A DNA stretch of 64,000 nucleotides from a virus (lineage: Duplodnaviria > Heunggongvirae > Uroviricota > Caudoviricetes): IMG/VR virus record IMGVR_UViG_3300026382_000007. One strand, 5' to 3'. The notes below the pieces were generated by a model, which searched no databases, was not told where the DNA came from, and was given only the letters and a program-made list of their open reading frames with translations. Positions 25,172-63,525 of the stretch are shown here, in pieces (within the stretch, counting starts at the first letter, position 1; every line of letters begins with the position of its first letter). A program made the position numbers and the translations under genes.

Positions 25172-25205
25172 CAATATACTATATTATACCGTAATGTAGC
25201 TTAAA
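25172..25205 (-). promoter_or_regulatory. copy of conserved promoter core in reverse orientation (minus strand)
   Basis: plus-strand atactatattataccgtaatgtagctt = reverse complement of aagctacattacggTATAATatagtat; no minus-strand gene downstream. Confidence 0.4.
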
Positions 25206-25216
25206 AGGAGCTTAAT

Positions 25217-25582
25217 TTGAGTAGGTTTACAAAACCTCTTATTGTTGAATATATTGATGGGAAAGATTGGAAGCTTCATGAAGCATTTAATTTTTACCTT
25301 GAGGGAAATCCTCATGAAATCATAACTGTTCCGAGAGGATATGTAACTGACTTTGCTTCAGTTCCAAATGTCCTAAGAATGTTCGCCAAAGATATTGAGT
25401 TATTCAATAAGGCGGCAATTCTACATGATTTCCTTTATGATGGTGAGACAAGATTCACCAGGAAAGAAAGTGACCAAATTTATCGTGATGGGATGAGAGT
25501 ATTTGGGGTCTCTGACTTTAGATCTACTATTTTTTATAAAATGTGCCGTTTATTCGGCAAATCAAGATGGGGAGGTCAATAA
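25217..25582 (+). CDS. DUF1353-family protein
   Basis: VPRGYVTDFASVP..HDFLY motif typical of DUF1353; TTG start after RBS aaaaggag. Confidence 0.5.
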   Translation: MSRFTKPLIVEYIDGKDWKLHEAFNFYLEGNPHEIITVPRGYVTDFASVPNVLRMFAKDIELFNKAAILHDFLYDGETRFTRKESDQIYRDGMRVFGVSDFRSTIFYKMCRLFGKSRWGGQ

Positions 25583-25800
25583 TGGCTACTAAGAAACAAA
25601 AAGAAGAAACTCGTAGAAAAATGATGTGGGTTGCATTATTCGCAATCGTTGCTGTAATGTTTGGAATTTTAGGACTTGTGTTCGTTGGGAAGCCAGTGGC
25701 TGATCTAGGTTTAATCGCTGGAGCATTCTTCACCTCATTAGCTGGTGTAAACGGGGCTTCATTATTTAGCAAGCCATCTACTGGTGCTGACGATGTTTAG
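25582..25800 (+). CDS. holin-like small membrane protein
   Basis: 72 aa, two predicted TM helices, charged N-term; RBS gggaggtcaataATG; precedes spanins. Confidence 0.45.
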   Translation: MATKKQKEETRRKMMWVALFAIVAVMFGILGLVFVGKPVADLGLIAGAFFTSLAGVNGASLFSKPSTGADDV

Positions 25801-26104
25801 TGTTATCACTGGAAACTTCAAACTTTATGGACTTATCGCACTTGGTGTGATTATCGCTGGGTTCTTAGTTGTATTCAAAATGCGAGGTATGAAAATCGCT
25901 GGTCTTCAAGAAAAACTTAAAGATGCAGAAGCACATATCAAAGTAGCGGTTGAAACTCAACGAAGGGCAAAAGTGGCAAGAGTCGCTGAAAAAGAGATTG
26001 AAAATGTTATTCTGGGAGCTGAGTCTAAAAAAGGTAAAGCAGAAATGGATGTTTCAAAGATTATGGAACAGTCAACAATAGAAAAGGTGTCGACGGGACT
26101 ATGA
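25793..26104 (+). CDS. i-spanin-like protein (N-terminal TM + coiled-coil)
   Basis: TM helix GLIALGVIIAGFLVVF then coiled-coil; 3' end overlaps o-spanin start (ATGA). Confidence 0.5.
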   Translation: MFSVITGNFKLYGLIALGVIIAGFLVVFKMRGMKIAGLQEKLKDAEAHIKVAVETQRRAKVARVAEKEIENVILGAESKKGKAEMDVSKIMEQSTIEKVSTGL

Positions 26105-26442
26105 AAAAGTTAATAATGTTTGTAATTTCAATTGTTATGGTGGTTGTTTTCGGTGGTTGTACTCGTACAGTTTATGTGTATCCAGAGCAAAACTTCCCGG
26201 AACTCCATGCACCGAAAAAGGTAGTGAGTGGATATGATTCTTATATCTGGCAAAAGTGCCTTTTTATCAACGATCACAACACTTCGCTGTGTAATGACGA
26301 CTTAAATAAAGTTATGACGACTGTAAAAAAGTTAAGAATTAATGAAGAGACATGCTCTAATGTGGTTGATGTTTATAATGATTATGTAAAAATTGAAAAA
26401 TCACAAACTAGAAAAGAGGATGATTATTCTTTCTGGTTTTAA
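26101..26442 (+). CDS. o-spanin-like outer-membrane lipoprotein
   Basis: lipobox VVFGGC after signal peptide; overlapping arrangement with i-spanin. Confidence 0.55.
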   Translation: MKKLIMFVISIVMVVVFGGCTRTVYVYPEQNFPELHAPKKVVSGYDSYIWQKCLFINDHNTSLCNDDLNKVMTTVKKLRINEETCSNVVDVYNDYVKIEKSQTRKEDDYSFWF

Positions 26443-26454
26443 AAGGAAGAAAAA

Positions 26455-26928
26455 GTGGAAGCATTCTTTGCCAAAATATCAAATTTATTAATCGCTTCCG
26501 GAACTGCTGGCTCATGGGCAGTCGCTGTAGTCTTACTTATCGTATATGGGTGGTTTAAGTATATAAAACCATTTTTAGACGATTGGGACTTGATTCGCTC
26601 GGTTGTTATGAAGAATCAAGACAGATACGAAGTATTAACAACCGCTGCAGAGGGGGTTGAGAGGTCAATAGTTGATTTCAATACTCACTCCGAAGAACGA
26701 CATAAATCGTTAAGAGAAATGTTACAGGACCGAGAAAACGAAATTCTTGCTCAGTTACACCGTGACATGACAAGTTTATTTGAAAAAGTAAAAGATCTAA
26801 ATGCCGATGTTGAGAAACATAGCGATGTCGATACCCGACGAATGAATGAGTTAATGGTAGAACTCACAAAAATTAATCTAAGATTGGAAATGTCTAACTC
26901 TGTAGGGCAATTAAGGGGAATGAAATGA
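26455..26928 (+). CDS. membrane protein with coiled-coil
   Basis: N-terminal TM segment. Confidence 0.35.
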   Translation: MEAFFAKISNLLIASGTAGSWAVAVVLLIVYGWFKYIKPFLDDWDLIRSVVMKNQDRYEVLTTAAEGVERSIVDFNTHSEERHKSLREMLQDRENEILAQLHRDMTSLFEKVKDLNADVEKHSDVDTRRMNELMVELTKINLRLEMSNSVGQLRGMK

Positions 26929-27677
26929 GAAAAAATGACAGATGTAGTCTGTACTTCCATCCACGGAAGTTCATAGAAAACAACATCAAATATAGAATTT
27001 CATCAGGTGCTTCCATTGCGAAGTACAAGCACTCACAAGCATTTCTTTTGACTGAACTGTCATTCAATCCTTATCATGAATTCAGTCGTATTGCTAAAGA
27101 AATTCTGCTTCTGAAATATGATGTTTGGTTTGACTTCTTATGCGAGGTCGAACAGTTCTTATTAGTGAATTCCAATAAATATATTGATGAAGGGTGTGTC
27201 AGACAGATTATCGATATGTCTGACGAGAGAGTTGCCTATTATGAAGAAACGATGGGTGATAATCCCGATGTCTTCTCAGAAGATTATCTCGCAACTTGGA
27301 AACAAGTGCACGAAATGAGCTACAATCTCCTAAAGGAAAATATACGAGAATTAAAAGATTTAAATGCATCAGAGTTTTTTGATGGTATGACAGAAAAATT
27401 GATTAATACGATGAACCATACCTTATATGAACTTCATGAGTGTGATGTAGTTTTCTTTTCAGACGGTATTTTAGAATTCAATTTGGATTCTGTATGTTGT
27501 ACTTATCACGACAAGTTTGGTGAAAGTCTCATAGTAAATAAGTATGATATCTACACAAAGGTGAGAGCAACGGACTTAATCCTAATTAAGCAATATTCCG
27601 ATGTGAATATTCCGTTTAATCAAACCCCGTTAAAGAGAATATTAGAAGAAAAACAAATAAAATATAAAGTGGTGTAA
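26925..27677 (+). CDS. hypothetical protein
   Basis: 250-aa ORF overlapping upstream stop. Confidence 0.35.
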   Translation: MRKNDRCSLYFHPRKFIENNIKYRISSGASIAKYKHSQAFLLTELSFNPYHEFSRIAKEILLLKYDVWFDFLCEVEQFLLVNSNKYIDEGCVRQIIDMSDERVAYYEETMGDNPDVFSEDYLATWKQVHEMSYNLLKENIRELKDLNASEFFDGMTEKLINTMNHTLYELHECDVVFFSDGILEFNLDSVCCTYHDKFGESLIVNKYDIYTKVRATDLILIKQYSDVNIPFNQTPLKRILEEKQIKYKVV

Positions 27678-27679
27678 TA

Positions 27680-28216
27680 ATGGCGAATTTTGAAAAGATT
27701 TTCAAAGAACAAGCAATCCTCGATCTGGGGATTACAGAAAAAGAGAGATATGGATTCTCTGAAACCATGGCGAATGATCACGGTTACGATGGGGATTTTA
27801 GTGAGTTTTCTTTAGAAGATGCTAAAAAGCTCTATAAGGCTGTTTTTTGGGATCCTTATAATTTCAGTGACATACAAAATTCTAAAATGGCGATGGAACT
27901 TTTTGAGTTTACACGACATTCTAGGTCGGGTGAATTTTCAGTGAGAATTCTACAACGAAGTTTTAATGTATTGAACAAAAACATCCTTCTAGAAGAAGAT
28001 GGTGTACTTGGTGAAGAAACAAGAACTGCGGTGAATGCCTACAAATTCTACAAAAGTCTTTTTAAGACTATGAACATTCTACAAGGAATGTTCTACATCT
28101 ACGAAGCTGAGGGTGATATGGTTGGTGGGGACTCAATGAGAGTTCACTCAATCACAACTTCTTGTAATGTAGATAAGAACTTTGTTCGTAATTGGATTGA
28201 TAAAATCGTAAAATAG
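27680..28216 (+). CDS. hypothetical protein with PG_binding_3-like motif (DGVLGEETRTAVNAY)
   Basis: D-G-x-x-G-x-x-T-x-x-A motif resembling peptidoglycan-binding domains. Confidence 0.3.
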   Translation: MANFEKIFKEQAILDLGITEKERYGFSETMANDHGYDGDFSEFSLEDAKKLYKAVFWDPYNFSDIQNSKMAMELFEFTRHSRSGEFSVRILQRSFNVLNKNILLEEDGVLGEETRTAVNAYKFYKSLFKTMNILQGMFYIYEAEGDMVGGDSMRVHSITTSCNVDKNFVRNWIDKIVK

Positions 28217-28224
28217 GAGATCAA

Positions 28225-28335
28225 ATGTCTGTAATTGAAATAAAAGAAGCTATTCGTGTTGCTGAATCAACTGGTGACAAAGCTACTGTCGAAAGTTTGA
28301 AAGCTGAACTTTCAAGTATGTCTATAAACGGTTAA
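28225..28335 (+). CDS. small protein (36 aa), below the ORF-track cutoff
   Basis: RBS aataggagatcaaATG; MSVIEIKEAIRVAESTGDKATVESLKAELSSMSING. Confidence 0.3.
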   Translation: MSVIEIKEAIRVAESTGDKATVESLKAELSSMSING

Positions 28336-28344
28336 GGAATTAAT

Positions 28345-28650
28345 ATGTCTATCTATGAAAATAATGGGGGTCGTAAGACTCCGGGACAACAATTGAAAGC
28401 ACTGAAAGAATCTAAGAAAACTTCAGTCAAAACATCAAATAAAACAAAATCAGCTGATACTAAATATATCAGAAATGATAAAGACCTTACAGCTATTGTG
28501 AAGGAATTTGACAAATCTATTGGTGGTGTAAAAGAGATTTTATATGACCATAAAAAAGTTGAAATTGGTTTATTACTTCGGTCTGGTGAACCTTACTTCT
28601 TCACTGAAAAACAATCAAAGCTTTTTTCGAAGCATCTCAAAGGAGTCTAA
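28345..28650 (+). CDS. hypothetical basic protein
   Basis: 101-aa ORF. Confidence 0.35.
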   Translation: MSIYENNGGRKTPGQQLKALKESKKTSVKTSNKTKSADTKYIRNDKDLTAIVKEFDKSIGGVKEILYDHKKVEIGLLLRSGEPYFFTEKQSKLFSKHLKGV

Positions 28651-29268
28651 ATGGATTTATCTAAGGCTCTGACGGGACTCCCGACTTCCCACTTATCAGT
28701 TAATGAGATGATCGATTTGACATCTACACCTTTTTTTACGAAGTCTATTGGTGAAAGAACCAAAGATCTTGGTGATGTGAAATATGTAGGGTTCAAATAT
28801 GTATTCCATAGAGACACAGATAAGAAATTGGTAACTTATGTGAATTTATACTTCTATATGAAAGGTTCAAATACAGCTTCGAATAAGCAAGGTAAAAAGG
28901 TTAAGAAGTCAAGAGAGAATTATCTTCTTGTAGCGAAATTCCCATATACACTTCATATTAAGAATATGAAGCGGTTATATGATTTGCCGATGCAAATATT
29001 CAGTTCTGACCCATCATTTAAGTATTATTTTGCATATGCTTTAAACAAGCTTAATGCGGTCGTGACGGACGATAAAGCTCTGGTGTCCCATTTGGGTGTC
29101 TCTTTGACTTCTAAGCCGTCTAAGACTAATCCTGACATGCAGATACAGCTTACTAAGCACTTTTTCAAGTTTTTCAAGTTCATAGCGAATAAAAAGCCTA
29201 AAGATTATCTTGCGAAGAAATATATGATCCCTATGAATACACGAGTCAAGGTGTTAAATTCTAATTAA
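28651..29268 (+). CDS. hypothetical protein
   Basis: 205-aa ORF, ATG adjacent to upstream stop. Confidence 0.35.
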   Translation: MDLSKALTGLPTSHLSVNEMIDLTSTPFFTKSIGERTKDLGDVKYVGFKYVFHRDTDKKLVTYVNLYFYMKGSNTASNKQGKKVKKSRENYLLVAKFPYTLHIKNMKRLYDLPMQIFSSDPSFKYYFAYALNKLNAVVTDDKALVSHLGVSLTSKPSKTNPDMQIQLTKHFFKFFKFIANKKPKDYLAKKYMIPMNTRVKVLNSN

Positions 29269-29287
29269 ATACAACTAAGGGGTCTAA

Positions 29288-29785
29288 ATGAAAATAGAGC
29301 AAATGAATGCTAAACAACTCGTGGAATATCGTGAGTCAATGGCAATAGGTCGTGACATGATTTGCCCGATATGTAAAAATAAACGAGAGATGAAAGAGTT
29401 CACGGTCGATCACCAACACAAAACTCAATCTGAGACAAATGGTGTAAACGGAGCAGGAATGGTTCGTGGTGTGATTTGCTTTAAATGTAATTCAACAGAG
29501 GGTCGTTTCCTAAGTGCTTACAAGCGAAGTGGTCTGAGACATGAGGCTGATTATACAGACTTTTTGAGAACACTCGCTGATTACTTAGATCAGGAAAATA
29601 CTCACTGGATACACCCAAGTGAAAAGGTCAAAGAGCCTAAATTGAAAAAGCGACCTTTCAACAAGATTGCAAAACTCTATGCTATTGAATTCCCTAAAAA
29701 GAAAGCACTTGAGTTTCCAAAATCTGGGAAAGCGACAAAACAAATTAAGGAACTAAGTGAGAAATACGAAGTTTCTTTAGTTTAA
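29288..29785 (+). CDS. endonuclease VII (Holliday-junction resolvase, T4 gp49-like)
   Basis: CPICKN..VDHQHKT..GMVRGVICFKCNSTEG..RSGL matches T4 endo VII LDHDH..KVRGLLCNLCNAAEG..RSGL. Confidence 0.8.
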   Translation: MKIEQMNAKQLVEYRESMAIGRDMICPICKNKREMKEFTVDHQHKTQSETNGVNGAGMVRGVICFKCNSTEGRFLSAYKRSGLRHEADYTDFLRTLADYLDQENTHWIHPSEKVKEPKLKKRPFNKIAKLYAIEFPKKKALEFPKSGKATKQIKELSEKYEVSLV

Positions 29786-29825
29786 GCTTACTTTAAGGAA
29801 CATTACGGTATAATACCATAAATAA
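29782..29825 (+). promoter_or_regulatory. promoter variant upstream of gp55-like gene
   Basis: tttaagcttactttaaggaacattacggTATAATaccat; -10 29809-29814. Confidence 0.45.
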
Positions 29826-29841
29826 TGTAATAGAGGTAAAA

Positions 29842-30327
29842 ATGGCTAAGAAGAAAACACCCAAAAAGGGCGAGGAGAATTTCTACTGTGATGATTATGA
29901 TCTAACAGCACTGATTCTTAAAGAGCAAGCAGAGTTTAGAGCTGGAGATAGAAAATCAGCTTCCAATGATCTAGGGGAACAATTCCTGAAGATCCGTGAG
30001 CATGTATTAACACTTCGTAACTTCTCAGGCTACAGCCGGAATTACAAAGATGAATTCCGCTCAAAGGCAAACGAGCTTTTTGCGAAGCACTGGTATAAAT
30101 TTGACCCAGTTCGTGCTCGCTTGAACTTCACACAACGGAACGGTGAACTGTTCTATAAAGAAGATGTTCATGAACTTCGTGGTGGATTCGGGTGGTTTAG
30201 TCTATTTTGTAAGACTGCTGCTATTGATGAGATTAAGAGATTTAAAAACATCAGAGAAAAACAACAAAAGATCATCGATGAGAAAAACGGTGATCTCAGA
30301 AACATGGACTCATTTATGTACAAATAG
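29842..30327 (+). CDS. gp55-like late-transcription sigma factor (tentative)
   Basis: LRNFSGYSRNYKDE resembles T4 gp55 RFNFSGYTQSWKQE as recalled from memory; size 161 aa. Confidence 0.45.
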   Translation: MAKKKTPKKGEENFYCDDYDLTALILKEQAEFRAGDRKSASNDLGEQFLKIREHVLTLRNFSGYSRNYKDEFRSKANELFAKHWYKFDPVRARLNFTQRNGELFYKEDVHELRGGFGWFSLFCKTAAIDEIKRFKNIREKQQKIIDEKNGDLRNMDSFMYK

Positions 30328-30357
30328 TCCTTAAATATAAGTCTAAAAGGATTTTAC

Positions 30358-30639
30358 ATGGGAATATTTTACGAAGCATTTAATGAGGCTGCAGGGCTTG
30401 ATGTCGGTGATATCGTTCAGGTTCGTGATTATGGATTGGAAAACGCAAAAGAACGAATTTGGAATGGTGCTATCGGTGAAGTAATTGCTGTCAATGGCAT
30501 TAAGGTACAAGTGAGAATCACGAATGTGAAACAATCAAATGTTCCTTATTCAGTGAAGTGGAGAGATAAAATTGATAATGCTCTCAAACACAAATTGACC
30601 CTTGAAAAGGGCGAATTCATTATATTGAGGGACAACTAA
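30358..30639 (+). CDS. hypothetical protein
   Basis: 93-aa ORF. Confidence 0.35.
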   Translation: MGIFYEAFNEAAGLDVGDIVQVRDYGLENAKERIWNGAIGEVIAVNGIKVQVRITNVKQSNVPYSVKWRDKIDNALKHKLTLEKGEFIILRDN

Positions 30640-30767
30640 CCCAAATCATGTCAATATTTATGGTGATCGTGAATCCGTAGGTAGTATAGGATGATAAAAT
30701 AAATTATCGAAACTATCACGGAAGCCGATTCAGTTATTCTCAAGGAATTCAAACCTTTTGATGATTA

Positions 30768-30827
30768 AGCTGGTTTTAAGCTTACTTTAGGTATAATATA
30801 GTATATCAAAAGTTAAAAAGGCTTAAA
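30768..30827 (+). promoter_or_regulatory. conserved phage promoter/leader cassette (full form)
   Basis: ttttaagcttactttaggTATAATatagtatatcaaaagttaaaaaggcttaaaTTG; -10 at 30792-30797. Confidence 0.6.
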
Positions 30828-31058
30828 TTGTTCAACTTATCAAATACTCTAATCACAAACACTGCTACATCGACTGGTATTGTAGCAGCACTTCTTCTAG
30901 CATTAAACATCAATATGTTCTTAGTAGCATACTGTCTGTTTCTTGCGTCTTCTATCCTATGGGCAATTTTCGCTCATAGAACTCAAAATAGACAACTTCT
31001 TATAATGAATGTAGTTTTTTCAGTAATTAACACTATCGGTGTTTATAACTTCTCTTAA
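30828..31058 (+). CDS. small membrane protein (TTG start)
   Basis: preceded by full conserved promoter/leader cassette ending aaaaaggcttaaaTTG; two TM helices. Confidence 0.4.
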   Translation: MFNLSNTLITNTATSTGIVAALLLALNINMFLVAYCLFLASSILWAIFAHRTQNRQLLIMNVVFSVINTIGVYNFS

Positions 31059-31095
31059 GCAAGATCTAAGGGGATGTACGGTATAATACGATGCC
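31050..31095 (+). promoter_or_regulatory. promoter variant
   Basis: agatctaaggggatgtacggTATAATacgatg; -10 31082-31087. Confidence 0.4.
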
Positions 31096-36556: not shown

Positions 36557-36660
36557 TATTATAATAAATCCAGGAATCTGGTCCAATTACTGGAAGTGAA
36601 CGACTACATCACCGATGTAGCTGGAACATATTCAACCTTTCGCTTAATTCTTTTCTAATT

Positions 36661-36721
36661 TAAGTAAGCTTTAAGTCTTTTTATGATATAATATAGTATA
36701 TCATAAGTAAAAGGCTTAAAA
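36661..36721 (+). promoter_or_regulatory. conserved promoter/leader cassette
   Basis: -10 tataat 36687-36692, downstream atagtatatcataagtaaaaggcttaaaaATG. Confidence 0.55.
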
Positions 36722-37057
36722 ATGAAAACTTCTAATCTTACTGCCACTATCGGCAAAACAACAATCACCCTAAACTTATCAAATACACAGAACATCAATG
36801 ACTGGAACTCTATGGCTCCGTTTACATCTGCTGTGTTAAATTTTATCGAAATGCATGCACTTCCATCGTATTCTTATCCTGAGGTTTATGAATTCATGGT
36901 TACTCAAAGAGATTGTCCTATTGAGGAAAACTTCCACGGTAACTTGGTATTTCAAAATGGTTTCGTTTCTGATACTGAAGAACGAGCTCTTTGTAAAATT
37001 ATCAAACAACTTTCAAAGGATGAGGAGACTTTCTTTCAAGTTAAAAATAAATCATAA
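36722..37057 (+). CDS. hypothetical protein
   Basis: 111 aa; preceded by conserved promoter/leader cassette. Confidence 0.4.
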   Translation: MKTSNLTATIGKTTITLNLSNTQNINDWNSMAPFTSAVLNFIEMHALPSYSYPEVYEFMVTQRDCPIEENFHGNLVFQNGFVSDTEERALCKIIKQLSKDEETFFQVKNKS

Positions 37058-37059
37058 TT

Positions 37060-37121
37060 AAGTTGCTTCTAAGTTAATGTATAGTATAATATAATATATC
37101 AAAAAATAACAAAGGAAAACT
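37060..37121 (+). promoter_or_regulatory. promoter variant upstream of DNA ligase
   Basis: ctaagttaatgtatagTATAATataatatatc; -10 37085-37090. Confidence 0.45.
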
Positions 37122-38525: not shown

Positions 38526-38629
38526 TGTATTTCAGAAATGTTAGTAAGGAGATGAGGTTTATTCACTTTGTCTTTGGGTAAGGTGAAGTTTATTGGTAAA
38601 GATAGACGATTACGAAAAGATATTAAACT

Positions 38630-38686
38630 TAAGCAAGCTCTAAGCTTACTTTAGGTATAATATAGTATAACTAAAAAGGAGTATCA
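38630..38686 (+). promoter_or_regulatory. conserved promoter/leader cassette
   Basis: aagcaagctctaagcttactttaggTATAATatagtataactaaaaaggag; -10 38656-38661. Confidence 0.6.
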
Positions 38687-39025
38687 ATGGGAATTGAACT
38701 AATCTGGATGCCACTGGCGAAAGCCGGAATCATCTTTTTGTTGCTGGGTCTTATGACTTGGCTGTTAAGACGAAAGAACTATAAACTTGGAGGTGCTGTT
38801 GCAGTAATTCTAGCTATTATGGTGATTTTCGCTCCAATAAAGCTTACTAATAAAACGGTTCATGTGAAACAGCAAACTCAGCAAATTGCTAAGGTGATGA
38901 CGGCTGAAATACCTGAGAGGGTAGAAAGAACAAAAAGATCACTTGACGGTGCCATGGCAAAGTTCAAAGTGATCCGTGAAGAATCACAAAAAGTAATCAA
39001 TGATGAACTCAACAAAAGTAAATAA
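38687..39025 (+). CDS. small membrane protein (2 TM)
   Basis: preceded by conserved promoter; hydrophobic helices. Confidence 0.4.
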   Translation: MGIELIWMPLAKAGIIFLLLGLMTWLLRRKNYKLGGAVAVILAIMVIFAPIKLTNKTVHVKQQTQQIAKVMTAEIPERVERTKRSLDGAMAKFKVIREESQKVINDELNKSK

Positions 39026-53466: not shown

Positions 53467-53512
53467 CTTAAGTAAGCTCTAAGCTAACTTTAGGTATAAT
53501 ATACTATATGAA
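53467..53512 (+). promoter_or_regulatory. conserved promoter cassette (no obvious CDS downstream)
   Basis: aagtaagctctaagctaactttaggTATAATatactatatg; -10 53495-53500. Confidence 0.5.
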
Positions 53513-53563: not shown

Positions 53564-53608
53564 CTTTAAGCTGACTCTAAGTTAGTTTACGGTATAATAT
53601 AGGTAACG
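53564..53608 (+). promoter_or_regulatory. conserved promoter cassette copy (ctgactctaagttagtttacgg form) 1 of 3
   Basis: tttaagctgactctaagttagtttacggTATAATataggt; -10 53593-53598. Confidence 0.5.
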
Positions 53609-53679: not shown

Positions 53680-53724
53680 CTTTAAGCTGACTCTAAGTTA
53701 GTTTACGGTATAATATAGGTATCT
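53680..53724 (+). promoter_or_regulatory. conserved promoter cassette copy 2 of 3 (identical 38-mer)
   Basis: -10 53709-53714. Confidence 0.5.
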
Positions 53725-53863: not shown

Positions 53864-53908
53864 CTTTAAGCTGACTCTAAGTTAGTTTACGGTATAATAT
53901 AGGATAAA
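53864..53908 (+). promoter_or_regulatory. conserved promoter cassette copy 3 of 3 driving GC-rich noncoding region
   Basis: -10 53893-53898. Confidence 0.5.
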
Positions 53909-54280
53909 CTCTTTAATCAGGGCATCGATAAGCGGTCTAAGTCTTTTGACTGTGACCGCAACACGGTGTCTTTATTAAAGAGTTTAGTGTTTAGCTGACA
54001 CGACACTCTGAGTTTTGAAGTCAGAACCTTGGGAATGTAGCATAGAGGTAAATGTAACTGCCGTGGAGGCAGAGAAGAGGGATCGTTACCCTCCTTTCTC
54101 TACAAGGGTTTTGAGTGAAAAATGTTGATCTTTTCGAGCACACTAGTCACTGCTCGAAAACTCAACATGAACGAATAGAAAGTCACTGTGCTGGGATCAC
54201 CTGGATTTCAGTGAAACTTCTAACCGAGTTTGCAAGGTAGCACCTTGCGACTCAATGAATTACGAAATTTATTATATGAT

Positions 54281-54325
54281 TAAGCTTCTTTTAAGGAAGT
54301 TTACAGTATAATAACGGTAACTTAA
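54281..54325 (+). promoter_or_regulatory. promoter variant inside noncoding region
   Basis: aagcttcttttaaggaagtttacagTATAATaacggtaactt; -10 54307-54312. Confidence 0.4.
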
Positions 54326-57170: not shown

Positions 57171-57182
57171 AATTTTTAAAAT

Positions 57183-57831: not shown

Positions 57832-57865
57832 TAATTTTTATTATAAACTAAAACAAGGAAGGCAA

Positions 57866-57979
57866 ATGTCGCACATAAATGCAAAAATTGCTGAACTTGA
57901 GAAAGACGGTAAACGAGAAAACATAGATTTTCGTATAGTATATTTTTCAGAATCAGCAGAATTAAAAATGTTGAAATAA
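57866..57979 (+). CDS. small protein (37 aa), below the ORF-track cutoff
   Basis: RBS aaggaaggcaaATG; MSHINAKIAELEKDGKRENIDFRIVYFSESAELKMLK. Confidence 0.25.
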   Translation: MSHINAKIAELEKDGKRENIDFRIVYFSESAELKMLK

Positions 57980-58103
57980 CAAAATTCAAAAAAGGAGTCA
58001 CGAATGTTGACAAGGTTAAGATCATTATCAAGATGTTTATGTTTAAGATTATTGTCAATTCGTGATGGATTGAGTTGTAGCTAAACTGCTATAATTTCAA
58101 TTC

Positions 58104-58189
58104 GGATAGTGCAAGCAAGGTGCTTAAGGTGGTTGCTAACCACTGGGGTGTAAACAGCCTGATGGGTTCAATTCCCATACTATCCTCCA
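58104..58189 (+). tRNA. tRNA-Ser(GCT), type II, CCA encoded
   Basis: acceptor ggatagt/actatcc perfect, anticodon arm ggtgg-ttGCTaa-ccact, long variable arm. Confidence 0.65.
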
Positions 58190-58280
58190 TCTTCAATTAG
58201 TACATTCAGTACAACCTTCAAAAACACAAACACTTTATTATTCATTCACAAATTTACTTGGTTATTCAAGCAACACATAT

Positions 58281-58367
58281 GCTCTCATGGTGGAATTGGC
58301 ATACACAATGGACTTAAAATCCATGGCTCGGAAGGGCTTCTCGGTTCAAATCCGAGTGGGAGCACCA
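58281..58367 (+). tRNA. tRNA-Leu(TAA), type II, CCA encoded (no intron)
   Basis: acceptor gctctca/tgggagc, anticodon arm atgga-ctTAAaa-tccat, variable hairpin gctc-ggaa-gggc. Confidence 0.7.
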
Positions 58368-58381
58368 TACTAAACAAATGT

Positions 58382-58457
58382 GCCGATGTACTTCAACGGA
58401 TAGAAATTCCGACTTCTAATCGGAAAGTTGGGGGTTCAAGCCCCTCCATCGGTACCA
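58382..58457 (+). tRNA. tRNA-Arg(TCT), CCA encoded
   Basis: acceptor gccgatg/catcggt, anticodon arm tccga-ctTCTaa-tcgga. Confidence 0.65.
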
Positions 58458-58458
58458 T

Positions 58459-58533
58459 GTATGATTGGCCAAATGGTAAGGCACGGGATTGCAAATCCTG
58501 AGATTGTCAGTTCGAGTCTGACATCATGCTCCA
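58459..58533 (+). tRNA. tRNA-Cys(GCA), CCA encoded
   Basis: acceptor gtatgat/atcatgc, anticodon arm cggga-ttGCAaa-tcctg. Confidence 0.65.
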
Positions 58534-58567: not shown

Positions 58568-59095
58568 ATGAACAAATTAGAATTCAATGAAGAAAACTTC
58601 GACATGTTAGTCGAGAGGATGCACTTCCTCAGGGAAGAAGTTAAAAAATACAAATATGACCATTTAACTGGTTTAAAACTCAGAAAAGATTTTGATGAGA
58701 AGCTTGATAGGATGTATGAAGCTTATGAATTTGAAGATCAACCATTTGTTTTCATTATGGCAGATGCTGATGGTCTACACAATACTAATAGGACTCTAGG
58801 TTATGATGCTGGTGATGAGCTTCTTATAACTATATCGAGTGAGCTCCGTGCGGAGTTCGGTGATTGTAGAAATGTTGATATATTTCGAATATCCGGCGAC
58901 GAATTTGCGGTTTTGATGACTGGTGATTTGTGTGGCGATGCAATTGACGAAAAAATGAAAAATGTCACAAGTTGCTCATATGCATCAGTCTTCATGGATG
59001 AGACTGAATGTCATCCAAGCCCATCATCTGTTTTTAAGTGTGCTGATAAAAAACTCACTGAAGTAAAGAAAACTAAAAAGCCTGAAAGAATTTAA
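58568..59095 (+). CDS. GGDEF-domain protein (diguanylate-cyclase-like, SGDEF variant)
   Basis: DHLTGL, FVFIMADADGLHNTNRTLGYDAGDELL and RISGDEFAVLM align with PleD-type GGDEF core (DQLTGL / LIDIDFFKKIND..GDEVL / RYGGEEFVVIM). Confidence 0.65.
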   Translation: MNKLEFNEENFDMLVERMHFLREEVKKYKYDHLTGLKLRKDFDEKLDRMYEAYEFEDQPFVFIMADADGLHNTNRTLGYDAGDELLITISSELRAEFGDCRNVDIFRISGDEFAVLMTGDLCGDAIDEKMKNVTSCSYASVFMDETECHPSPSSVFKCADKKLTEVKKTKKPERI

Positions 59096-59154
59096 GCAAG
59101 CTCTAAGCTAACTTTAGGTATAATATAGTATATTAAAAGTTAAAAGGGCTTAAA
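59091..59154 (+). promoter_or_regulatory. conserved promoter/leader cassette (full form)
   Basis: aagcaagctctaagctaactttaggTATAATatagtatattaaaagttaaaagggcttaaaATG; -10 59119-59124. Confidence 0.6.
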
Positions 59155-59424
59155 ATGAAAACTTTCATACTCACCTCACTTATTGCATCAATCCTACTTA
59201 CTGGATGTGGTGCTAAGACCCCCGAAACCAAGTGTTATACAAATACTTATCACAATGCTGATGTAATCCTTGCAGACCAAGAAAAAGGCTCTTCAAACGC
59301 AGTATCTAGTACAACAACTTCTCAAACAACAGAAACAACTCATTGCTATGAAAAACCTCAAGACGATGCGAGTTACTTTTGGATTATTCCCGTGGCGATT
59401 GCTACTGTAACGATGGTGATATAG
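59155..59424 (+). CDS. small lipoprotein with C-terminal TM segment
   Basis: lipobox LLTGC; preceded by complete conserved promoter/leader cassette. Confidence 0.45.
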   Translation: MKTFILTSLIASILLTGCGAKTPETKCYTNTYHNADVILADQEKGSSNAVSSTTTSQTTETTHCYEKPQDDASYFWIIPVAIATVTMVI

Positions 59425-59858: not shown

Positions 59859-60137
59859 ATGAGACCACTCGGATTTAAAGTAATTATAGAAAAGAAAACG
59901 GTGCAAGCGGAACAAACTTCCGGAACACTTATTATTGAACTTGAAAAGTCAACTTCAGATGCTGACGATGTTAGTGAGGGAACTGTAATTTCAGTAGGAA
60001 ATGAAGTAAACTCTGTGATACATATGATAGATGTTGGTGATACCGTGAAATATGAAAATCATGGTGGGTATGAAGTGAATATTGACGGTAAAGACCTGAT
60101 TATAGCTGATATCAAAAACATTCTGGTGGTATTATAA
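59859..60137 (+). CDS. groES: co-chaperonin GroES/gp31-like
   Basis: 92 aa; MRPLGFKVIIEK..GTVISVG..VGDTVKY pattern parallels GroES; immediately upstream of GroEL with ATGA overlap. Confidence 0.6.
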   Translation: MRPLGFKVIIEKKTVQAEQTSGTLIIELEKSTSDADDVSEGTVISVGNEVNSVIHMIDVGDTVKYENHGGYEVNIDGKDLIIADIKNILVVL

Positions 60138-61717
60138 TGAAAGATATTTTATATGGTTCAGAAGCGAGAGAACTTCTACAAGTTGGTGTTAATAAATTAG
60201 CAAAGGCGGTTGCGGTGACTATGGGACCTCTTGGTCGTAATGTTCTAATTCAGAGGGATAATGAAAATCCATTTCTCACCAAGGACGGTGTTACGGTAGC
60301 TGGTGAAGTTCAATTGAAGAATCCAGTTGAAAATATGGCAGCAAGTCTAGTGAAAGAAGTTTCATCAAATACGGCATTCGAAGCTGGTGATGGTACGACT
60401 ACATCTACTGTTTTAACTGATGCAATTTTCACACACGGTGTTGATGGCATCAAAAGTTCAACGAATATCGTTGAAATGAAAAAGGGTATGGATTCAGCGG
60501 TTCGTGAGGTTGTAAGCTACATTGAAATGAATAGTCGTAAGATTACATCTCATGAAGAAATTAAGCAAATTGCTACTATTTCAGCGAATTCAGATGTTCC
60601 TATGGGTCAGATGATTGCGGATGCTATGGAAGCTGTTGGTGAAGACGGGATTATCAATATCGAAGAAAATAACGGTGTGACGGATGAACTTGCCTCAACT
60701 AAGGGCTTCAAATTCAATCGTGGTTACATGAGTCCAAACTTCGTGACAAATCCTGGTAAAGAAATTGCTGAACATGAAAATCCTTTCATTTTAGTAACTG
60801 ATCAGCGAATTGGCCATTTAGCACACATATTACCTATTCTACAAAAGGTTCAGGAAACTGCAAGACCACTTATAATTTTAGCGGATGACTTTGACCCTGA
60901 AGCACTTAACACAGTTGTAGTGAATAAGGTTCGTGGTATCATGAATATGACGGTTGTAAAGTTACCAGGGTTTGGTGACGGAAAACGAGATCAGATGATT
61001 GACATTGCTATGACTTCAGGTGCTACTATTGTTGGTGCTGAAACTGGTCGTACATTTGAGTCACTGACTTTAGAAGATCTCGGTGAAGCGAAGCGAGTTG
61101 TAGTTGAGAAACAGAATACTATTATCATCAACGGAAAGGGATCAAGTACTGAAGAAATTACTCAGCATAAAAATGCCTTAAAAGTACAAATTGAAGCACT
61201 CCCAGATGGTGATGCTAAAGTGTCTCTTAAATCTAGATTATCCCGCCTTTCAGGTGCAGCAGCAGTTATCAGAGTTGGTGCTCAGACTGAACTTGAAATG
61301 AGAGAAAAGAAAGATAGATTTGATGATGCGGTTGCGGCAACAAAAGCAGCAGTGGCTGAGGGTATTGTTATTGGTGGTGGTTCTGCTTTGGCTAGGGCTT
61401 CACATTTCATCAAAGTGAATAGACAATCAACCAGTTCTGATTTTGACAAAGGGTTCGATGTGATTCTTGAAGCATGTTTTGCTCCTATAGAACAAATTGC
61501 AAATAATGCTGGTCGTAACGGCATTGAGATCGTTGGTGATCTTTCTGAACATGAGAATGAAAACTTCGGTTGGAATGCTCTTACTGATACTTATGAAGAT
61601 TTATTTGAATCAGGTGTCATCGATCCGCTCAAAGTGACTAGAATTGCAATAATCAATGCTTGTAGTTGTGCTTCTACTCTTTTAACTACTGAAACGGTAA
61701 TTTATACAGAAGATTAA
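60137..61717 (+). CDS. groEL: chaperonin GroEL (Cpn60)
   Basis: AVAVTMGPLGRNVLI..FEAGDGTTTSTVLT..equatorial domain motifs, 526 aa. Confidence 0.85.
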   Translation: MKDILYGSEARELLQVGVNKLAKAVAVTMGPLGRNVLIQRDNENPFLTKDGVTVAGEVQLKNPVENMAASLVKEVSSNTAFEAGDGTTTSTVLTDAIFTHGVDGIKSSTNIVEMKKGMDSAVREVVSYIEMNSRKITSHEEIKQIATISANSDVPMGQMIADAMEAVGEDGIINIEENNGVTDELASTKGFKFNRGYMSPNFVTNPGKEIAEHENPFILVTDQRIGHLAHILPILQKVQETARPLIILADDFDPEALNTVVVNKVRGIMNMTVVKLPGFGDGKRDQMIDIAMTSGATIVGAETGRTFESLTLEDLGEAKRVVVEKQNTIIINGKGSSTEEITQHKNALKVQIEALPDGDAKVSLKSRLSRLSGAAAVIRVGAQTELEMREKKDRFDDAVAATKAAVAEGIVIGGGSALARASHFIKVNRQSTSSDFDKGFDVILEACFAPIEQIANNAGRNGIEIVGDLSEHENENFGWNALTDTYEDLFESGVIDPLKVTRIAIINACSCASTLLTTETVIYTED

Positions 61718-61771
61718 GCAAGCTCTAAGCTTGTTTTAGGTATAATATAGTATAACTAAAAAGGATTCATT
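61714..61771 (+). promoter_or_regulatory. conserved promoter/leader cassette
   Basis: aagcaagctctaagcttgttttaggTATAATatagtataactaaaaaggattcattATG; -10 61741-61746. Confidence 0.55.
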
Positions 61772-61885
61772 ATGATGGTAAAATGTAGAAAAACTGGTCG
61801 CATGTATGATCCAGAATTAGGGTTTGAAAAATTACTCAAAGAATCTTGGGTTATCGCGATTATGAAAAGACTTCGTTTCAGGTAA
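61772..61885 (+). CDS. small protein (37 aa) behind conserved promoter cassette
   Basis: promoter/leader 61714-61760 then aaaaaggattcattATG. Confidence 0.3.
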   Translation: MMVKCRKTGRMYDPELGFEKLLKESWVIAIMKRLRFR

Positions 61886-62625
61886 ACGAATATGGGAGTG
61901 GTGCTAATGGAGAGAGGCTGAAATGCTCGGGTTGCACCAGATGGCAAACTTAGATTACTCACGATTGAGCAAGGATAAGACCTGACTATTGGTATGTTAG
62001 GGGATAATCATGTTAGTGTTGGAAATAAGTGTACATGAGTTGGACAACTAACCATCAACTGCGAAGACAGTATAAACTCGGGTGGCACGAGATGTGAGAG
62101 TAACACTGTGCCGTACAATTAATAAACTACTGAGGGCAACGGGACTCAGCATGACTCGGTGAGCGAGCAGTTCTTTATGGGTGTACTTGATATCAGTGCA
62201 CAGCGGAAGCTTATGAAGTGGGCTTCCCCACAGAAATGTGTTTTACAATCGTTGCTTCGGGTTACACACCACTGCGTCCAGTCGACCCTAGATGGTCAAA
62301 AGTGACTGTGTCTGAAGCACATTTATCCTCGATTGGTATAATTGGTTATTACTACTTATATGGCAGAGAAGCCAACATCCAAGATTTTAGCGGATCATGG
62401 TAGCAGTTGAAGAGGCGAAGTAGATTTGTTGGTGAATGTGAAATAACACCAACTTTTTGAAAAGCACAAAGGCTTGAAGTTCTAGCATAAGGTGCTAAAT
62501 TGCTGAGTTCTATCTCAATTCACAGCGGATAGAATAGGTTTAAAAATGACAAGCGGAAGACAGCAAATAAGGTGATTGTGGTTCGAGTCCACGGTTGGGG
62601 GCCAAATTTAATATAAAGAAGAATA

Positions 62626-62955
62626 ATGAAAACAAAAATTCGTGAAAGAAACTACATTATCAGGGCTGAAATGGGTGGTACTATGCCGTACTATTTTGGT
62701 AGATACAAGAGCTATTTAGGTAGACGAGTTTTATACCTTGATAAGCTTCGTACTTACATACTTGATGATAAAAAGAACGGCAGTTATGGCAATTTCAAAA
62801 GGTTCACTCTGGAAGAAGCCGAAGAAATGTTGAAACTCATCAAGGCTTGGTGGATGAATAATCCAAGGAAAAACCATTACAAGCCTAAAAAGTTTTATAT
62901 TCAAAAAATCAGTAAAATGGAAAAACAATTCAAGAAGGATTTTGCATGCAAGTAA
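62626..62955 (+). CDS. hypothetical basic protein
   Basis: 109 aa. Confidence 0.35.
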   Translation: MKTKIRERNYIIRAEMGGTMPYYFGRYKSYLGRRVLYLDKLRTYILDDKKNGSYGNFKRFTLEEAEEMLKLIKAWWMNNPRKNHYKPKKFYIQKISKMEKQFKKDFACK

Positions 62956-63239
62956 AATTAGTGCGAGACAAATATATCAATATCATTCCAAAAGATCAAA
63001 TTGAAATTCTAACTGATGAACAATCACATCAATGGCTTGTTGCGAAAATAGCTGAGGAAACTCAGGAGATTATTGACAGCAACTTCAATGATATCAGTGA
63101 ATATGCTGATGTTTTTGAAATATTAATTGCACTTGCGAAGAAAAATGGCTTTACAAAGGCTGATATTCTTAGAGCAAGGAATACGAAATTGAAAGACAAG
63201 GGTTCTTTTGATTTGAATCTACTATGGACGGAGGTCTAA
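62946..63239 (+). CDS. hypothetical protein
   Basis: 97 aa, overlaps upstream gene. Confidence 0.35.
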   Translation: MQVKLVRDKYINIIPKDQIEILTDEQSHQWLVAKIAEETQEIIDSNFNDISEYADVFEILIALAKKNGFTKADILRARNTKLKDKGSFDLNLLWTEV

Positions 63240-63240
63240 T

Positions 63241-63483
63241 ATGACAATTTATGCTTGGATGATAGCTTATCCTTATTTGGCGATACTTGCATTTGCATTT
63301 ATTATTTACACATTGACGGTGAACTTACTTGATGAAACTGATGGCATGTTTCCACGGTACTTCTCTGCTGTAACATTACCGTGGGTCTATGCTTACTACA
63401 TTCATGTAAGTTCATATTTGATGTATGGTGAAAGTTCTTTAGTAAACCTTTTCCAATATCTTCCTAAATTAAGCTTGTTCTAA
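63241..63483 (+). CDS. small membrane protein
   Basis: 80 aa with two hydrophobic helices. Confidence 0.35.
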   Translation: MTIYAWMIAYPYLAILAFAFIIYTLTVNLLDETDGMFPRYFSAVTLPWVYAYYIHVSSYLMYGESSLVNLFQYLPKLSLF

Positions 63484-63525
63484 GTAAAGTTTAGGCATAA
63501 TATAGAATAACTAAAAAGGATACAT
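63470..63525 (+). promoter_or_regulatory. conserved promoter/leader cassette (CATAAT variant)
   Basis: aagcttgttctaagtaaagtttaggCATAATatagaataactaaaaaggatacatATG. Confidence 0.45.

What the first reader, a model, noticed from the sequence alone, without database searches (positions are those of the whole stretch)
25172..63525. A highly conserved ~45-70 nt promoter plus leader cassette is reused at least 20 times, including one antisense copy
The core AAGC(T/A)..TAAGCTNACTTTAGGTATAATATAGTATA recurs with near identity. Copies sit at 30768, 36661, 38630, 43006, 48579, 53467, 53564, 53680, 53864, 59091, 61714 and 63470, and diverged variants at 29782, 31050, 37060, 48918, 49461 and 54281. A subset also shares the downstream leader ..ATCAnAAGTAAAAAGGCTTAAAATG, fused directly to the start codon of small genes, including the TTG start at 30828. 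The -10 hexamer is perfect, and the preceding GG/TACGG gives an extended-10 flavour. There is no sigma70-type -35. The conserved upstream AAGCT/TAAGCT direct repeats suggest either an UP-like element or a binding site for a phage factor. Three identical 38-mers drive the noncoding tRNA-region transcripts. One copy at 25172-25205 is inverted. It would transcribe antisense across the 24807-25169 gene.
Basis: seen in the sequence. Interest (0 to 1): 0.6.

Follow-up and report, generated by a model that had tools for sequence, protein, structure and literature searches.

The report
Campylobacter-type promoters reused across a phage
An uncultivated tailed phage uses about 20 near-identical copies of one promoter, and its odd upstream repeats match the housekeeping promoter type of Campylobacter-like bacteria, so the finding is real but largely ordinary and mainly useful as a clue to the host.

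Summary
A weight-matrix scan finds exactly 19 copies in the window (32-57 bits; best shuffle 9.5): 18 on the + strand and one inverted at 25175-25216. The same genome holds four more just outside the window.

The consensus is tTTAAGC-N4-TyTAAG-N11-TATAAT-ATAGTATA. The two TAAG repeats lie 11 bp apart, and the E. coli -35 position falls in the variable spacer.

The same architecture (TTAAG-N6-YTAAG-N11-TATAAT) occurs 17 times in the unrelated C. jejuni phage CP81 and 7 times in the C. jejuni plasmid pVir. Shuffles give about 0 in both. Published dRNA-seq places a primary start site exactly 7 nt after the TATAAT at 6 of the 7 pVir copies, with no phage present. TTTAAGT is the published C. jejuni "-35" consensus.

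A phage flagellin gene closest to Helicobacter and Campylobacter flagellins independently points to a Campylobacterota host.

Best reading: these are strong early or middle promoters read by the host's RpoD polymerase. They drive small genes, nucleotide-metabolism genes, a gp55-like late sigma factor, tRNAs, short RNAs and a GOLLD RNA. A phage-specific factor is not required but is not excluded.

Verdict: new member of a known kind, modest interest.

The parts
25175..25216 (-). Inverted promoter copy (TATAAT 25188-25183 on the - strand; predicted start about 25176). It lies inside the late/lysis gene block and reads antisense into gene 24807-25169. On the + strand its upstream arm overlaps the SD and TTG start of the DUF1353 gene at 25217.
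   Evidence: 50.2 bits; sequence; neighbouring genes.
29781..29822 (+). Promoter copy (T of TATAAT at 29809). The stop codon of the endonuclease VII-like gene 29288-29785 lies inside the TTAAG repeat. Drives gene 29842-30327, a gp55-like late sigma factor.
   Evidence: 42.9 bits; UTR about 21 nt; phrog_234 late sigma transcription factor, 4.3e-11.
30764..30830 (+). Promoter copy (T at 30792) plus leader TCAAAAGTTAAAAAGGCTTAAA fused to the TTG start at 30828 (76-aa ORF).
   Evidence: 52.5 bits; repeat family D1 reference copy.
31054..31095 (+). Diverged promoter copy (T at 31082), about 50-nt UTR, ahead of gene 31144-31428.
   Evidence: 32.1 bits.
36659..36724 (+). Promoter copy (T at 36687) plus GGCTTAAAAATG leader; gene 36722-37057.
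   Evidence: 43.9 bits.
37057..37098 (+). Promoter copy (T at 37085) ahead of the ATP-dependent DNA ligase gene 37122-38525.
   Evidence: 43.3 bits; Pfam DNA_ligase_A_M.
38628..38689 (+). Promoter copy (T at 38656) plus leader AACTAAAAAGGAGTATCAATG; gene 38687-39025, followed by the SPFH gene and the ribonucleotide reductase small- and large-subunit genes.
   Evidence: 55.7 bits.
43005..43070 (+). Promoter copy (T at 43033) plus GGCTTAAAATG leader; gene 43068-43340, followed downstream by dCMP deaminase.
   Evidence: 46.8 bits.
48578..48640 (+). Promoter copy (T at 48606) plus GGCTTAAAATG leader; gene 48638-48853.
   Evidence: 47.6 bits.
48917..48958 (+). Promoter copy (T at 48945; second repeat is TAATC); gene 48977-49189.
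   Evidence: 43.3 bits.
49460..49501 (+). Promoter copy (T at 49488) at the head of the first tRNA cluster (tRNAs from 49943).
   Evidence: 44.4 bits; tRNAs.
53467..53508 (+). Promoter copy (T at 53495). It follows a terminator-like hairpin at 53407-53432 and has no ORF downstream.
   Evidence: 49.2 bits.
53565..53606 (+). First of three copies sharing an identical 38-mer (T at 53593). It would give a short RNA of about 60 nt ending in the hairpin and U-run at 53636-53665.
   Evidence: 52.2 bits; fold z-score -4.6.
53681..53722 (+). Second identical-38-mer copy (T at 53709). The downstream RNA carries two T-arm-like hairpins (GGTTCGAATCC).
   Evidence: 48.7 bits; sequence.
53865..53906 (+). 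Third identical-38-mer copy (T at 53893). A weak tRNA-like element lies downstream at 54031-54101.
   Evidence: 57.0 bits; Rfam tRNA 31.6 bits.
54279..54320 (+). Promoter copy (T at 54307) placed to drive the GOLLD RNA. The Rfam-matched 3' half is 54853-55311.
   Evidence: 36.8 bits; GOLLD RF02032, 224 bits.
59091..59157 (+). Promoter copy (T at 59119) plus GGGCTTAAAATG leader. It heads an operon of four small genes, GroES (59859-60137) and GroEL (60137-61717).
   Evidence: 57.1 bits; Cpn10 and Cpn60.
61713..61774 (+). Promoter copy (T at 61741) overlapping the GroEL stop, with leader AACTAAAAAGGATTCATTATG. It precedes a 37-aa ORF and then about 740 nt without a convincing ORF.
   Evidence: 55.7 bits.
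63468..63528 (+). Promoter copy with CATAAT (T position 63496) plus AACTAAAAAGGATACATATG leader; gene 63526-63705.
   Evidence: 43.3 bits.

Best explanation
These are strong, near-consensus promoters read by the unmodified host RNA polymerase carrying its housekeeping sigma factor (RpoD). The host is most likely a member of the Campylobacterota (Epsilonproteobacteria).

Recognition would rest on four parts:
- a perfect -10 TATAAT;
- a G at -14/-13, which is a partial extended -10;
- the conserved start region ATAGTATA;
- three T-rich elements phased one helical turn apart: tTTAAGC at -40 to -34, TyTAAGc at -29 to -23, and TTTA(c)GG at -18 to -13.

The phased elements stand in for the E. coli-type -35 hexamer in this phylum. 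Transcription should start 6-8 nt after the hexamer (T of TATAAT plus 11-13). This gives 18-25 nt leaders with an AAAGG Shine-Dalgarno sequence, or the 5' ends of tRNA precursors, short RNAs and the GOLLD RNA.

The promoters serve the early or middle programme: small host-takeover ORFs, ligase, ribonucleotide reductase, dCMP deaminase, GroES/GroEL and tRNAs. They also turn on a gp55-like late sigma factor, which would then read a different motif (TTAAATA) in front of the structural genes.

What is shown here: the motif, its statistics, its position relative to genes, and its identity of architecture with Campylobacter elements whose start sites are mapped. What is inferred: the start sites in this phage, the timing, the polymerase form and the host.
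For: 1. There are 19 copies, sharply separated from background. All are intergenic or overlap a stop codon, and they lie at a fixed distance from an SD plus start or ahead of RNA genes.

2. The same architecture with the same spacing, TTAAG-N6-YTAAG-N11-TATAAT, occurs 17 times in C. jejuni phage CP81 (shuffle mean 0.03). CP81 shares only two weak protein matches with this phage. It occurs 7 times in C. jejuni 81-176 plasmid pVir (shuffle mean 0).

3. Dugar et al. 2013 (PMC3656092, Table S5) list dRNA-seq TSS at pVir 11323, 16269, 25676, 29076, 30011 and 31257. These equal the T of TATAAT plus 12 for 6 of the 7 pVir copies, in cells without phage.

4. The published C. jejuni RpoD consensus is -10 TATAAT and '-35' TTTAAGTnTT (Wosten 1998, as quoted in PMC3824568). 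Published features also include a periodic A/T-rich signal instead of a -35 box, the RBS AAGGA, and 5' UTRs mostly 20-50 nt (PMC3656092).

There are 0 hits in 568 kb of other GroEL-encoding phage loci of similar GC content.

6. A Nautiliales genome has the full motif 30 nt upstream of rpsL.

7. Independent host clue: the phage flagellin (45013-45837, - strand) is closest to H. pylori FlaB and FlaA and to C. jejuni FlaA (E 1e-57 to 6e-50; next hit 5e-45). It shares the AESQIRDVD(F/Y)A motif with them.

8. The first + strand copy drives a gp55-like late sigma gene, as does a CP81 copy at 68477, ahead of the sigma-factor gene at 68501.

9. Distant relatives with 40-70% protein identity keep the motif and the AAAGGnTyTAAAATG leader.
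Against: - There are no transcript data for this phage, and its host is inferred, not known.
- The strict pattern is rare in bacterial chromosomes. A GTDB-wide scan gave 22 hits, only 3 of them in Campylobacterota. The full double-repeat form is therefore typical of mobile elements rather than of average host promoters.
- Positions beyond the shared architecture are conserved within this phage family: GC after TTAAG, TTACGG or TTTAGG before the hexamer, and GTATA at the start. The generic host consensus does not explain these.
- The canonical TG of the extended -10 is replaced by GG.
- pVir or CP81 could each encode their own factor.
- Only about 85 kb of the roughly 155-kb genome could be inspected for regulators.
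Confidence: 0.7

Rival explanations
1. These are middle-type promoters that need a phage-encoded activator or sigma-appropriation factor, working like T4 MotA/AsiA. The factor would bind the two TTAAGC/CTAAGC direct repeats at -39 and -28 and replace the sigma region 4 contact with the -35 box.
For: The repeats are the best-conserved upstream positions and flank the normal -35 position rather than occupying it. Family-specific bases around them are conserved in distant relatives. The full pattern is rare in bacterial chromosomes. The phage has a T4-like late sigma, so a T4-like cascade is plausible.
Against: The same repeats and spacing occur in an unrelated phage and in plasmid pVir, where start sites are mapped without any phage. 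They also occur upstream of a chromosomal rpsL. TTTAAGT is the published host -35 consensus. No MotA, AsiA or other regulator family was hit among about 50 window proteins scanned against Pfam or PHROGs. Many small ORFs have no match, and half the genome was not seen.
Confidence: 0.15
2. The repeats are operators. A phage or host DNA-binding protein binds the tandem TAAG sites to shut these promoters off, or to time them. The promoter itself would be only the -10 region.
For: Two direct repeats 11 bp apart lie on one face of the helix, as expected for a tandem-binding protein. In Epsilonproteobacteria an extended -10 alone can suffice. The leader GGCTTAAA contains the inverted form of TTTAAGC.
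Against: Relatives vary the leader (GGTTCAAAATG, GGTTCTAAATG), so the inverted site is not kept. The same repeats occur in unrelated replicons and at a chromosomal rpsL promoter. In cj0183, changing the -35 region to TTTAAGTATT roughly doubled activity, which is an activating effect and not a repressing one (PMC3824568).
Confidence: 0.1
3. The copies are primarily a mobile or recombinogenic cassette, like the promoter-early stem-loop (PeSL) elements of T4-type phages. They would shuffle small genes, and transcription would be secondary.
For: Some pairs are 88-94% identical over 62-66 nt, including the leader and the first codons. Three copies are tandemly arranged.
Against: Similarity ends at about -45 (28% identity further upstream). 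There are no terminal repeats or target duplications. Terminator-like stem-loops accompany only the copies in the noncoding RNA cluster. Orientation and distance to start codons are strictly those of promoters. Recombination between copies may still occur as a by-product.
Confidence: 0.05

Closest known systems
Campylobacter jejuni / Helicobacter RpoD (sigma70) promoters (Wosten et al. 1998; Petersen et al. 2003; Dugar et al. 2013)
   Same: The -10 TATAAT; an upstream TTTAAG(T/C) element about 18-19 bp before the hexamer; T-rich elements phased every 10-11 bp instead of TTGACA; a G just upstream of the hexamer; a start 7 nt after the hexamer; short leaders with an AAGG-type RBS.
   Different: The phage copies are far closer to one another than host promoters are. 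They carry a second, nearly invariant TAAG at -27 and conserved start-region bases. They have GG rather than TGn before the hexamer.
Repeated promoter-leader units of C. jejuni 81-176 plasmid pVir (ATTAAGTATAgATTAAGTATAAAAAAgGTATAAT)
   Same: Identical architecture and spacing (TTAAG-N6-TTAAG-N11-TATAAT). They are reused 7 times with a shared leader ahead of small genes. Primary start sites have been mapped at 6 of 7.
   Different: A plasmid, not a phage. The spacer and leader sequences differ, and there are no RNA genes downstream.
Promoters of Campylobacter T4-like phages (Fletchervirus CP81; also CP21 and CPt10)
   Same: 17-19 copies of the same architecture per genome, ahead of DNA-metabolism genes and the gp55-like sigma gene.
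   Different: The phages are unrelated; only ligase and DUF1353 match, at 27-28% identity. The CP81 copies are more AT-rich and less uniform. I found no paper in the searchable library describing them.
Phage T4 early promoters and PeSL cassettes (Arbiol et al. 2010; from my own knowledge)
   Same: Many near-consensus host-sigma promoters precede small early ORFs, followed by a switch to a gp55-type late sigma.
   Different: T4 early promoters have an E. coli-type -35 (GTTTAC/TTGACA). PeSL units include a stem-loop, which is absent here at protein-coding copies.
T4 MotA-dependent middle promoters
   Same: A conserved non-canonical element replaces the -35 box upstream of a good -10.
   Different: The MotA box is a single (a/t)(a/t)(a/t)TGCTTtA centred at -30. 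Here two TAAG repeats lie at -39 and -28. No MotA or AsiA homologue was found.

Membership tests
Campylobacterota-type RpoD promoter | -10 hexamer TATAAT | tested here: met
   18 of 19 copies have TATAAT and one has CATAAT.
Campylobacterota-type RpoD promoter | Upstream '-35 region' TTTAAGTnTT about 18-19 bp from the hexamer, rather than TTGACA at 17 bp | tested here: met
   (t)TTAAG(C/T) is invariant at T-28 to T-22, so the 10-mer lies 18 bp from the hexamer. Consensus quoted in PMC3824568. TTGACA-type pairs are not enriched.
Campylobacterota-type RpoD promoter | Periodic T/A-rich signal with a 10-11 bp period upstream of the -10 | tested here: met
   TTTAAGC, TyTAAGc and TTTAcGG start at -40, -29 and -18/-19, giving spacings of 11 and 10-11 bp. 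The feature is described in PMC3656092.
Campylobacterota-type RpoD promoter | Extended -10 (TGn) before the hexamer | tested here: inconclusive
   G at -14 in 15 of 19 copies, but T at -15 is absent; the copies read (A/C)GG, not TGn. The pVir copies with mapped TSS also have GG or TG.
Campylobacterota-type RpoD promoter | Transcription starts about 7 nt after the hexamer, by host RpoD holoenzyme | not testable with these tools
   Shown only for the same architecture on pVir (TSS = T+12 at 6 of 7 copies). No RNA data exist for this phage.
Campylobacterota-type RpoD promoter | The element resides in a replicon of a Campylobacterota host | tested here: inconclusive
   The host is unknown. Supporting evidence is the flagellin closest to H. 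pylori and C. jejuni flagellins and the motif shared with Campylobacter phages and a plasmid. The GTDB scan was only weakly informative, with 3 of 22 hits in Campylobacterota.
E. coli-type sigma70 promoter | -35 TTGACA-like hexamer 16-18 bp upstream of the -10 | tested here: not met
   That position falls in the variable spacer between the repeats. It reads CTGACT in only 4 copies and CAAGCT or similar in the others.
T4 MotA/AsiA middle promoter | MotA box (a/t)(a/t)(a/t)TGCTTtA centred at -30 | tested here: not met
   No TGCTT at -30 in any copy.
T4 MotA/AsiA middle promoter | Phage encodes MotA and AsiA homologues | tested here: inconclusive
   No such hit among the window proteins scanned. 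Many small ORFs are unmatched, and about 70 kb of the genome was not available.
PeSL-type mobile promoter cassette (T4-type phages) | An early promoter paired with a conserved stem-loop flanking small ORFs | tested here: not met
   Terminator-like hairpins accompany only the copies at 53495-53893. None of the protein-coding copies has one, and no flank is conserved.
Single-subunit or phage-RNAP promoter (T7-like, N4-like) | A phage-encoded RNA polymerase and a promoter unrelated to sigma70 -10 elements | tested here: not met
   The motif is built around TATAAT. No RNAP domain was found in the proteins scanned. The phage encodes a gp55-like sigma, which implies use of the host core enzyme.

The most novel reading that the evidence does not exclude
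The bipartite TTAAG-N6-TTAAG element, at fixed distance from TATAAT, may be a specific sequence-read upstream promoter element of Campylobacterota RNA polymerase, or the site of a conserved host factor. Mobile elements (phages of at least two unrelated families and a plasmid) would have optimised it into a 'super-promoter'. If so, it would define what replaces the -35 box in a phylum whose promoters are currently described only as having a periodic A/T signal. It would also give a sequence signature for assigning uncultivated phages to Campylobacterota hosts.
Probability: 0.3. Interest if true: 0.5.

Novelty: new member of a known kind. Interest (0 to 1): 0.33.

Why it matters
- It explains an apparently odd promoter with no -35 box as the normal promoter grammar of a particular host phylum. 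That gives a host prediction (Campylobacterota) for an uncultivated phage of about 155 kb and for a group of related metagenomic phages.
- It supplies about 23 predicted start sites. These organise the early region into transcription units, including the units for a GOLLD RNA, tRNA clusters, GroES/GroEL and the late sigma factor.
- The near-invariant double TTAAG shared by unrelated Campylobacter mobile elements is a ready-made test of what the upstream element of epsilonproteobacterial promoters really is.

Tried and rejected
- Megablast of 12 kb against INPHARED found no match.
- An exact 20-mer of the -10 region in IMG/VR hit only one unrelated contig, which has a strong AGGAGG SD and no TAAG repeats. 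I judged this coincidental similarity of the -10 region.
- My first regex on the GroEL-relative loci was too strict and missed copies in L003 and L038, which the weight matrix later found.
- The GGDEF protein search gave only unnamed metagenomic relatives and no host clue.
- The GTDB-wide motif scan gave 22 scattered hits, too few to assign a host on its own.
- I searched for relatives through the DUF1353 gene, to see whether the inverted copy is conserved. Only one weak locus without the motif turned up, so this remains unresolved.
- C. jejuni plasmid pTet has no copy.
- Searches for the ENA and JGI sample identifiers in the paper library found nothing.
- Literature searches found no description of this double-TTAAG promoter in Campylobacter phages.
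- Rfam and folding of the ORF-poor stretch 61880-62625 gave nothing significant.
- I dropped the idea that the leader GCTTAAA is a functional inverted copy of TTTAAGC, because relatives do not keep it.

Full report
**What is there.** The window is part of a tailed phage genome. It has baseplate and tail-fibre genes and an endolysin in 1-29.8 kb. After that come ligase, ribonucleotide reductase, dCMP deaminase, GroES/GroEL and 26 tRNA genes, almost all on the + strand. It has no close relative among deposited phages. The same genome occurs as a 154,940-bp ENA contig and a 136,976-bp JGI contig.

Nothing else in the window scores above 8.9, and the best shuffled window scores 9.5. Four further copies lie in the same genome just outside the window.

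Aligned on the hexamer, the consensus is tTTAAGC-N4-T-yTAAG-N11-TATAAT-ATAGTATA. Information content peaks at the two TAAG repeats, at GG before the hexamer, at the hexamer itself and at the next 8 nt. Similarity vanishes upstream of about -45. With TATAAT at -12 to -7, the repeats sit at -39 to -35 and -28 to -24, which is 11 bp apart. A third T-rich block, TTTA(c)GG, sits at -18 to -13. The place where an E. coli -35 hexamer would lie is the variable spacer between the repeats.

**Position relative to genes.** Thirteen + strand copies lie in intergenic gaps, and in several the TAA stop of the previous gene is inside TTAAG. The predicted UTR ahead of an AAAGG-type SD and start codon is 18-25 nt, and 50 nt in one case.

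Six copies precede RNA rather than protein:
- 49488 heads the first tRNA cluster.
- 53495, 53593, 53709 and 53893 lie in an ORF-free stretch with terminator-like hairpins and tRNA-like pieces. One of these is a 60-nt hairpin RNA with z = -4.6.
- 54307 is placed to drive a GOLLD RNA (Rfam RF02032, 224 bits, 54853-55311).

The first + strand copy drives a gp55-like late sigma factor. Late-gene intergenic regions instead share TTAAATA. This layout is that of an early or middle promoter class, with a separate late class.

**What the upstream repeats are.** I scanned IMG/VR for TTAAG-N6-YTAAG-N11-TATAATA. Besides uncultured contigs, this returned many loci from isolate genomes, all of which proved to be Campylobacter phages: CP81-like, CP21 and CPt10.

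In the complete CP81 genome the architecture occurs 17 times against 0.03 in shuffles. TTAAG offsets relative to TATAAT peak sharply at -27 and -16, exactly as in the window. CP81 is otherwise unrelated to this phage.

The conjugative C. jejuni plasmid pVir has 7 copies with its own shared leader; plasmid pTet has none.

For pVir there are published dRNA-seq data (PMC3656092, Table S5). Primary start sites are listed at 11323, 16269, 25676, 29076, 30011 and 31257. Each is exactly 12 nt after the first T of TATAAT of one of my 7 predicted copies. So this architecture is an active promoter in Campylobacter without any phage.

The literature gives the C. jejuni housekeeping promoter as -10 TATAAT, a T-rich -16 region ending in G, and a -35 region TTTAAGTnTT. 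Changing a native -35 region to that consensus roughly doubled activity (PMC3824568). [quoted passage not shown]

A Nautiliales genome carries the full motif 30 nt upstream of rpsL. As a negative control, 568 kb from 36 other GroEL-encoding phage loci of similar GC content contain no copy.

**Host.** The promoter grammar points to Campylobacterota. Independently, the only clear minus-strand gene of the early region (45013-45837) is a 274-aa flagellin. Its best matches among solved structures have sequences that I recognise as H. pylori FlaB and FlaA, followed by C. jejuni FlaA (6x80). Their E-values are 1e-57 to 6e-50, against 5e-45 for the next hit. They share the C-terminal AESQIRDVD(F/Y)A motif with the phage protein. 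This is good but indirect evidence. The GTDB scan alone was weak, with 3 of 22 hits in Campylobacterota.

**Relatives.** Several uncultured contigs share 40-70% identical proteins with the window: IMGVR 3300028490_000005 and _000012, 3300000228_000004 and _000075, 3300006077_000409, 3300013103_000485 and 3300005095_000172. They carry many copies of TTAAGCAAGgTtTAAGCTAACTTACGGTATAAT with the leader AAAGGnTyTAAAATG, and some also carry GOLLD and tmRNA genes. The motif is therefore under selection across a phage group and is not a recent accident of one genome.

**The inverted copy.** The copy at 25175-25216 scores 50 bits and lies inside the late/lysis block, between an unknown 120-aa gene and a DUF1353 tail-chaperone-like gene. 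It would start an antisense RNA at about 25176, running into 24807-25169. The first terminator-like hairpins on that strand are near 23088-23065. No SD or ORF follows it. Early antisense transcription over late genes is a reasonable guess but is untested, and I could not check conservation.

**Rivals.**
- *Phage activator (MotA-like).* Not needed given pVir, CP81 and rpsL, and no homologue was seen. However, family-specific conserved bases and the rarity of the full pattern in chromosomes leave it open (about 0.15).
- *Operator role for the repeats.* Possible in addition to promoter function (about 0.1).
- *Mobile-cassette (PeSL-like) role.* Not supported by the flanks (about 0.05).

**Verdict.** The promoter interpretation is right. 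The 'missing -35 box' and the 'phage factor site' are best explained by the host phylum's own promoter type. This is a new member of a known kind, of modest interest. The useful by-products are a host prediction and a clean natural consensus for the upstream element of epsilonproteobacterial promoters.

Noticed in passing
window 54853-55311 (+); probable full RNA from about 54319: A GOLLD RNA (Rfam RF02032, 224 bits against a gathering score of 150) sits in the tRNA region, downstream of promoter copy 54307, with an embedded weak tRNA-like hit at 54919-54987. GOLLD also occurs in related contigs L096 (8137-8588) and L003 (7987-8445).
   Followed up: partly
window 45013-45837 (-): A phage-encoded 274-aa flagellin (Flagellin_N 4.9e-40, Flagellin_C 7e-15) lacking the outer domains. 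It is closest to H. pylori FlaB and FlaA and to C. jejuni FlaA. It is the only clear minus-strand gene in the early region.
   Followed up: partly
window 45841-45905 (- strand, upstream of the flagellin gene): The flagellin leader resembles the promoter cassette (…ATATAGTATAAC…AAGGAG…ATG), but the TATAAT is replaced by CGATCT. That is close to the C. jejuni sigma28 -10 element CGATTT, which suggests transcription by host FliA.
   Followed up: no
window 29842-30327 (+); intergenic regions at 5856-5912, 16499-16545, 17533-17616, 19033-19169, 22588-22622: A gp55-like late sigma factor (phrog_234, 4.3e-11). Five of six late-region intergenic gaps contain TTAAATA, a candidate late promoter resembling T4 TATAAATA.
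   Followed up: partly
window 49943-58533: 26 tRNA genes in several clusters, interspersed with ORF-free stretches. These include a below-threshold tRNA-Sec-like hit at 56713-56799 (43.9 bits against a gathering score of 47) and T-arm-like hairpins at 53759-53773 and 53818-53834.
   Followed up: no
window 61880-62625 (+): About 740 nt without a convincing ORF lie downstream of promoter copy 61741. The stretch ends in a tRNA-like T-arm plus acceptor sequence (GTGGTTCGAGTCCACGGTTGGGGGCCA). There is no Rfam hit and no significant fold z-score. Relatives L003 and L038 have tmRNA genes several kb downstream of GroEL.
   Followed up: partly
window 59859-61717 (+); 58568-59095 (+): A phage GroES/GroEL pair (GroEL 46-53% identical to those of Flavobacterium and Bacteroides phages and of uncultured phages). 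A stand-alone 175-aa GGDEF-domain protein has a family of similar small homologues in metagenomes.
   Followed up: partly
window 63870-63994 (+): Three tandem 39-nt repeats (98-100% identical) at the end of the window, apparently in-frame coding repeats rich in Asp, Glu and Cys.
   Followed up: no
L181 (C. jejuni 81-176 pVir, NC_008770.1) 11284-31280: pVir reuses a promoter-plus-leader unit of about 75 nt seven times ahead of small hypothetical genes. Six of these have mapped primary TSS. I found no paper in the searchable library discussing this repeat.
   Followed up: partly
L099 (IMGVR_UViG_3300026521_000370) 1000-1700: In this uncultured phage contig, four tandem copies of a related promoter (AATTTAATTAGACTTTAAGCTTTAATTAGCTATAAT) each directly precede a single tRNA gene.
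   Followed up: no
L001 7466-7485 and L002 6296-6315 (IMGVR_UViG_3300045988_156311): An unrelated phage contig with strong AGGAGG ribosome sites carries the identical 20-mer TTTAGGTATAATATAGTATA twice, but without the TAAG repeats. This is probably convergent similarity of the -10 and start regions.
   Followed up: partly
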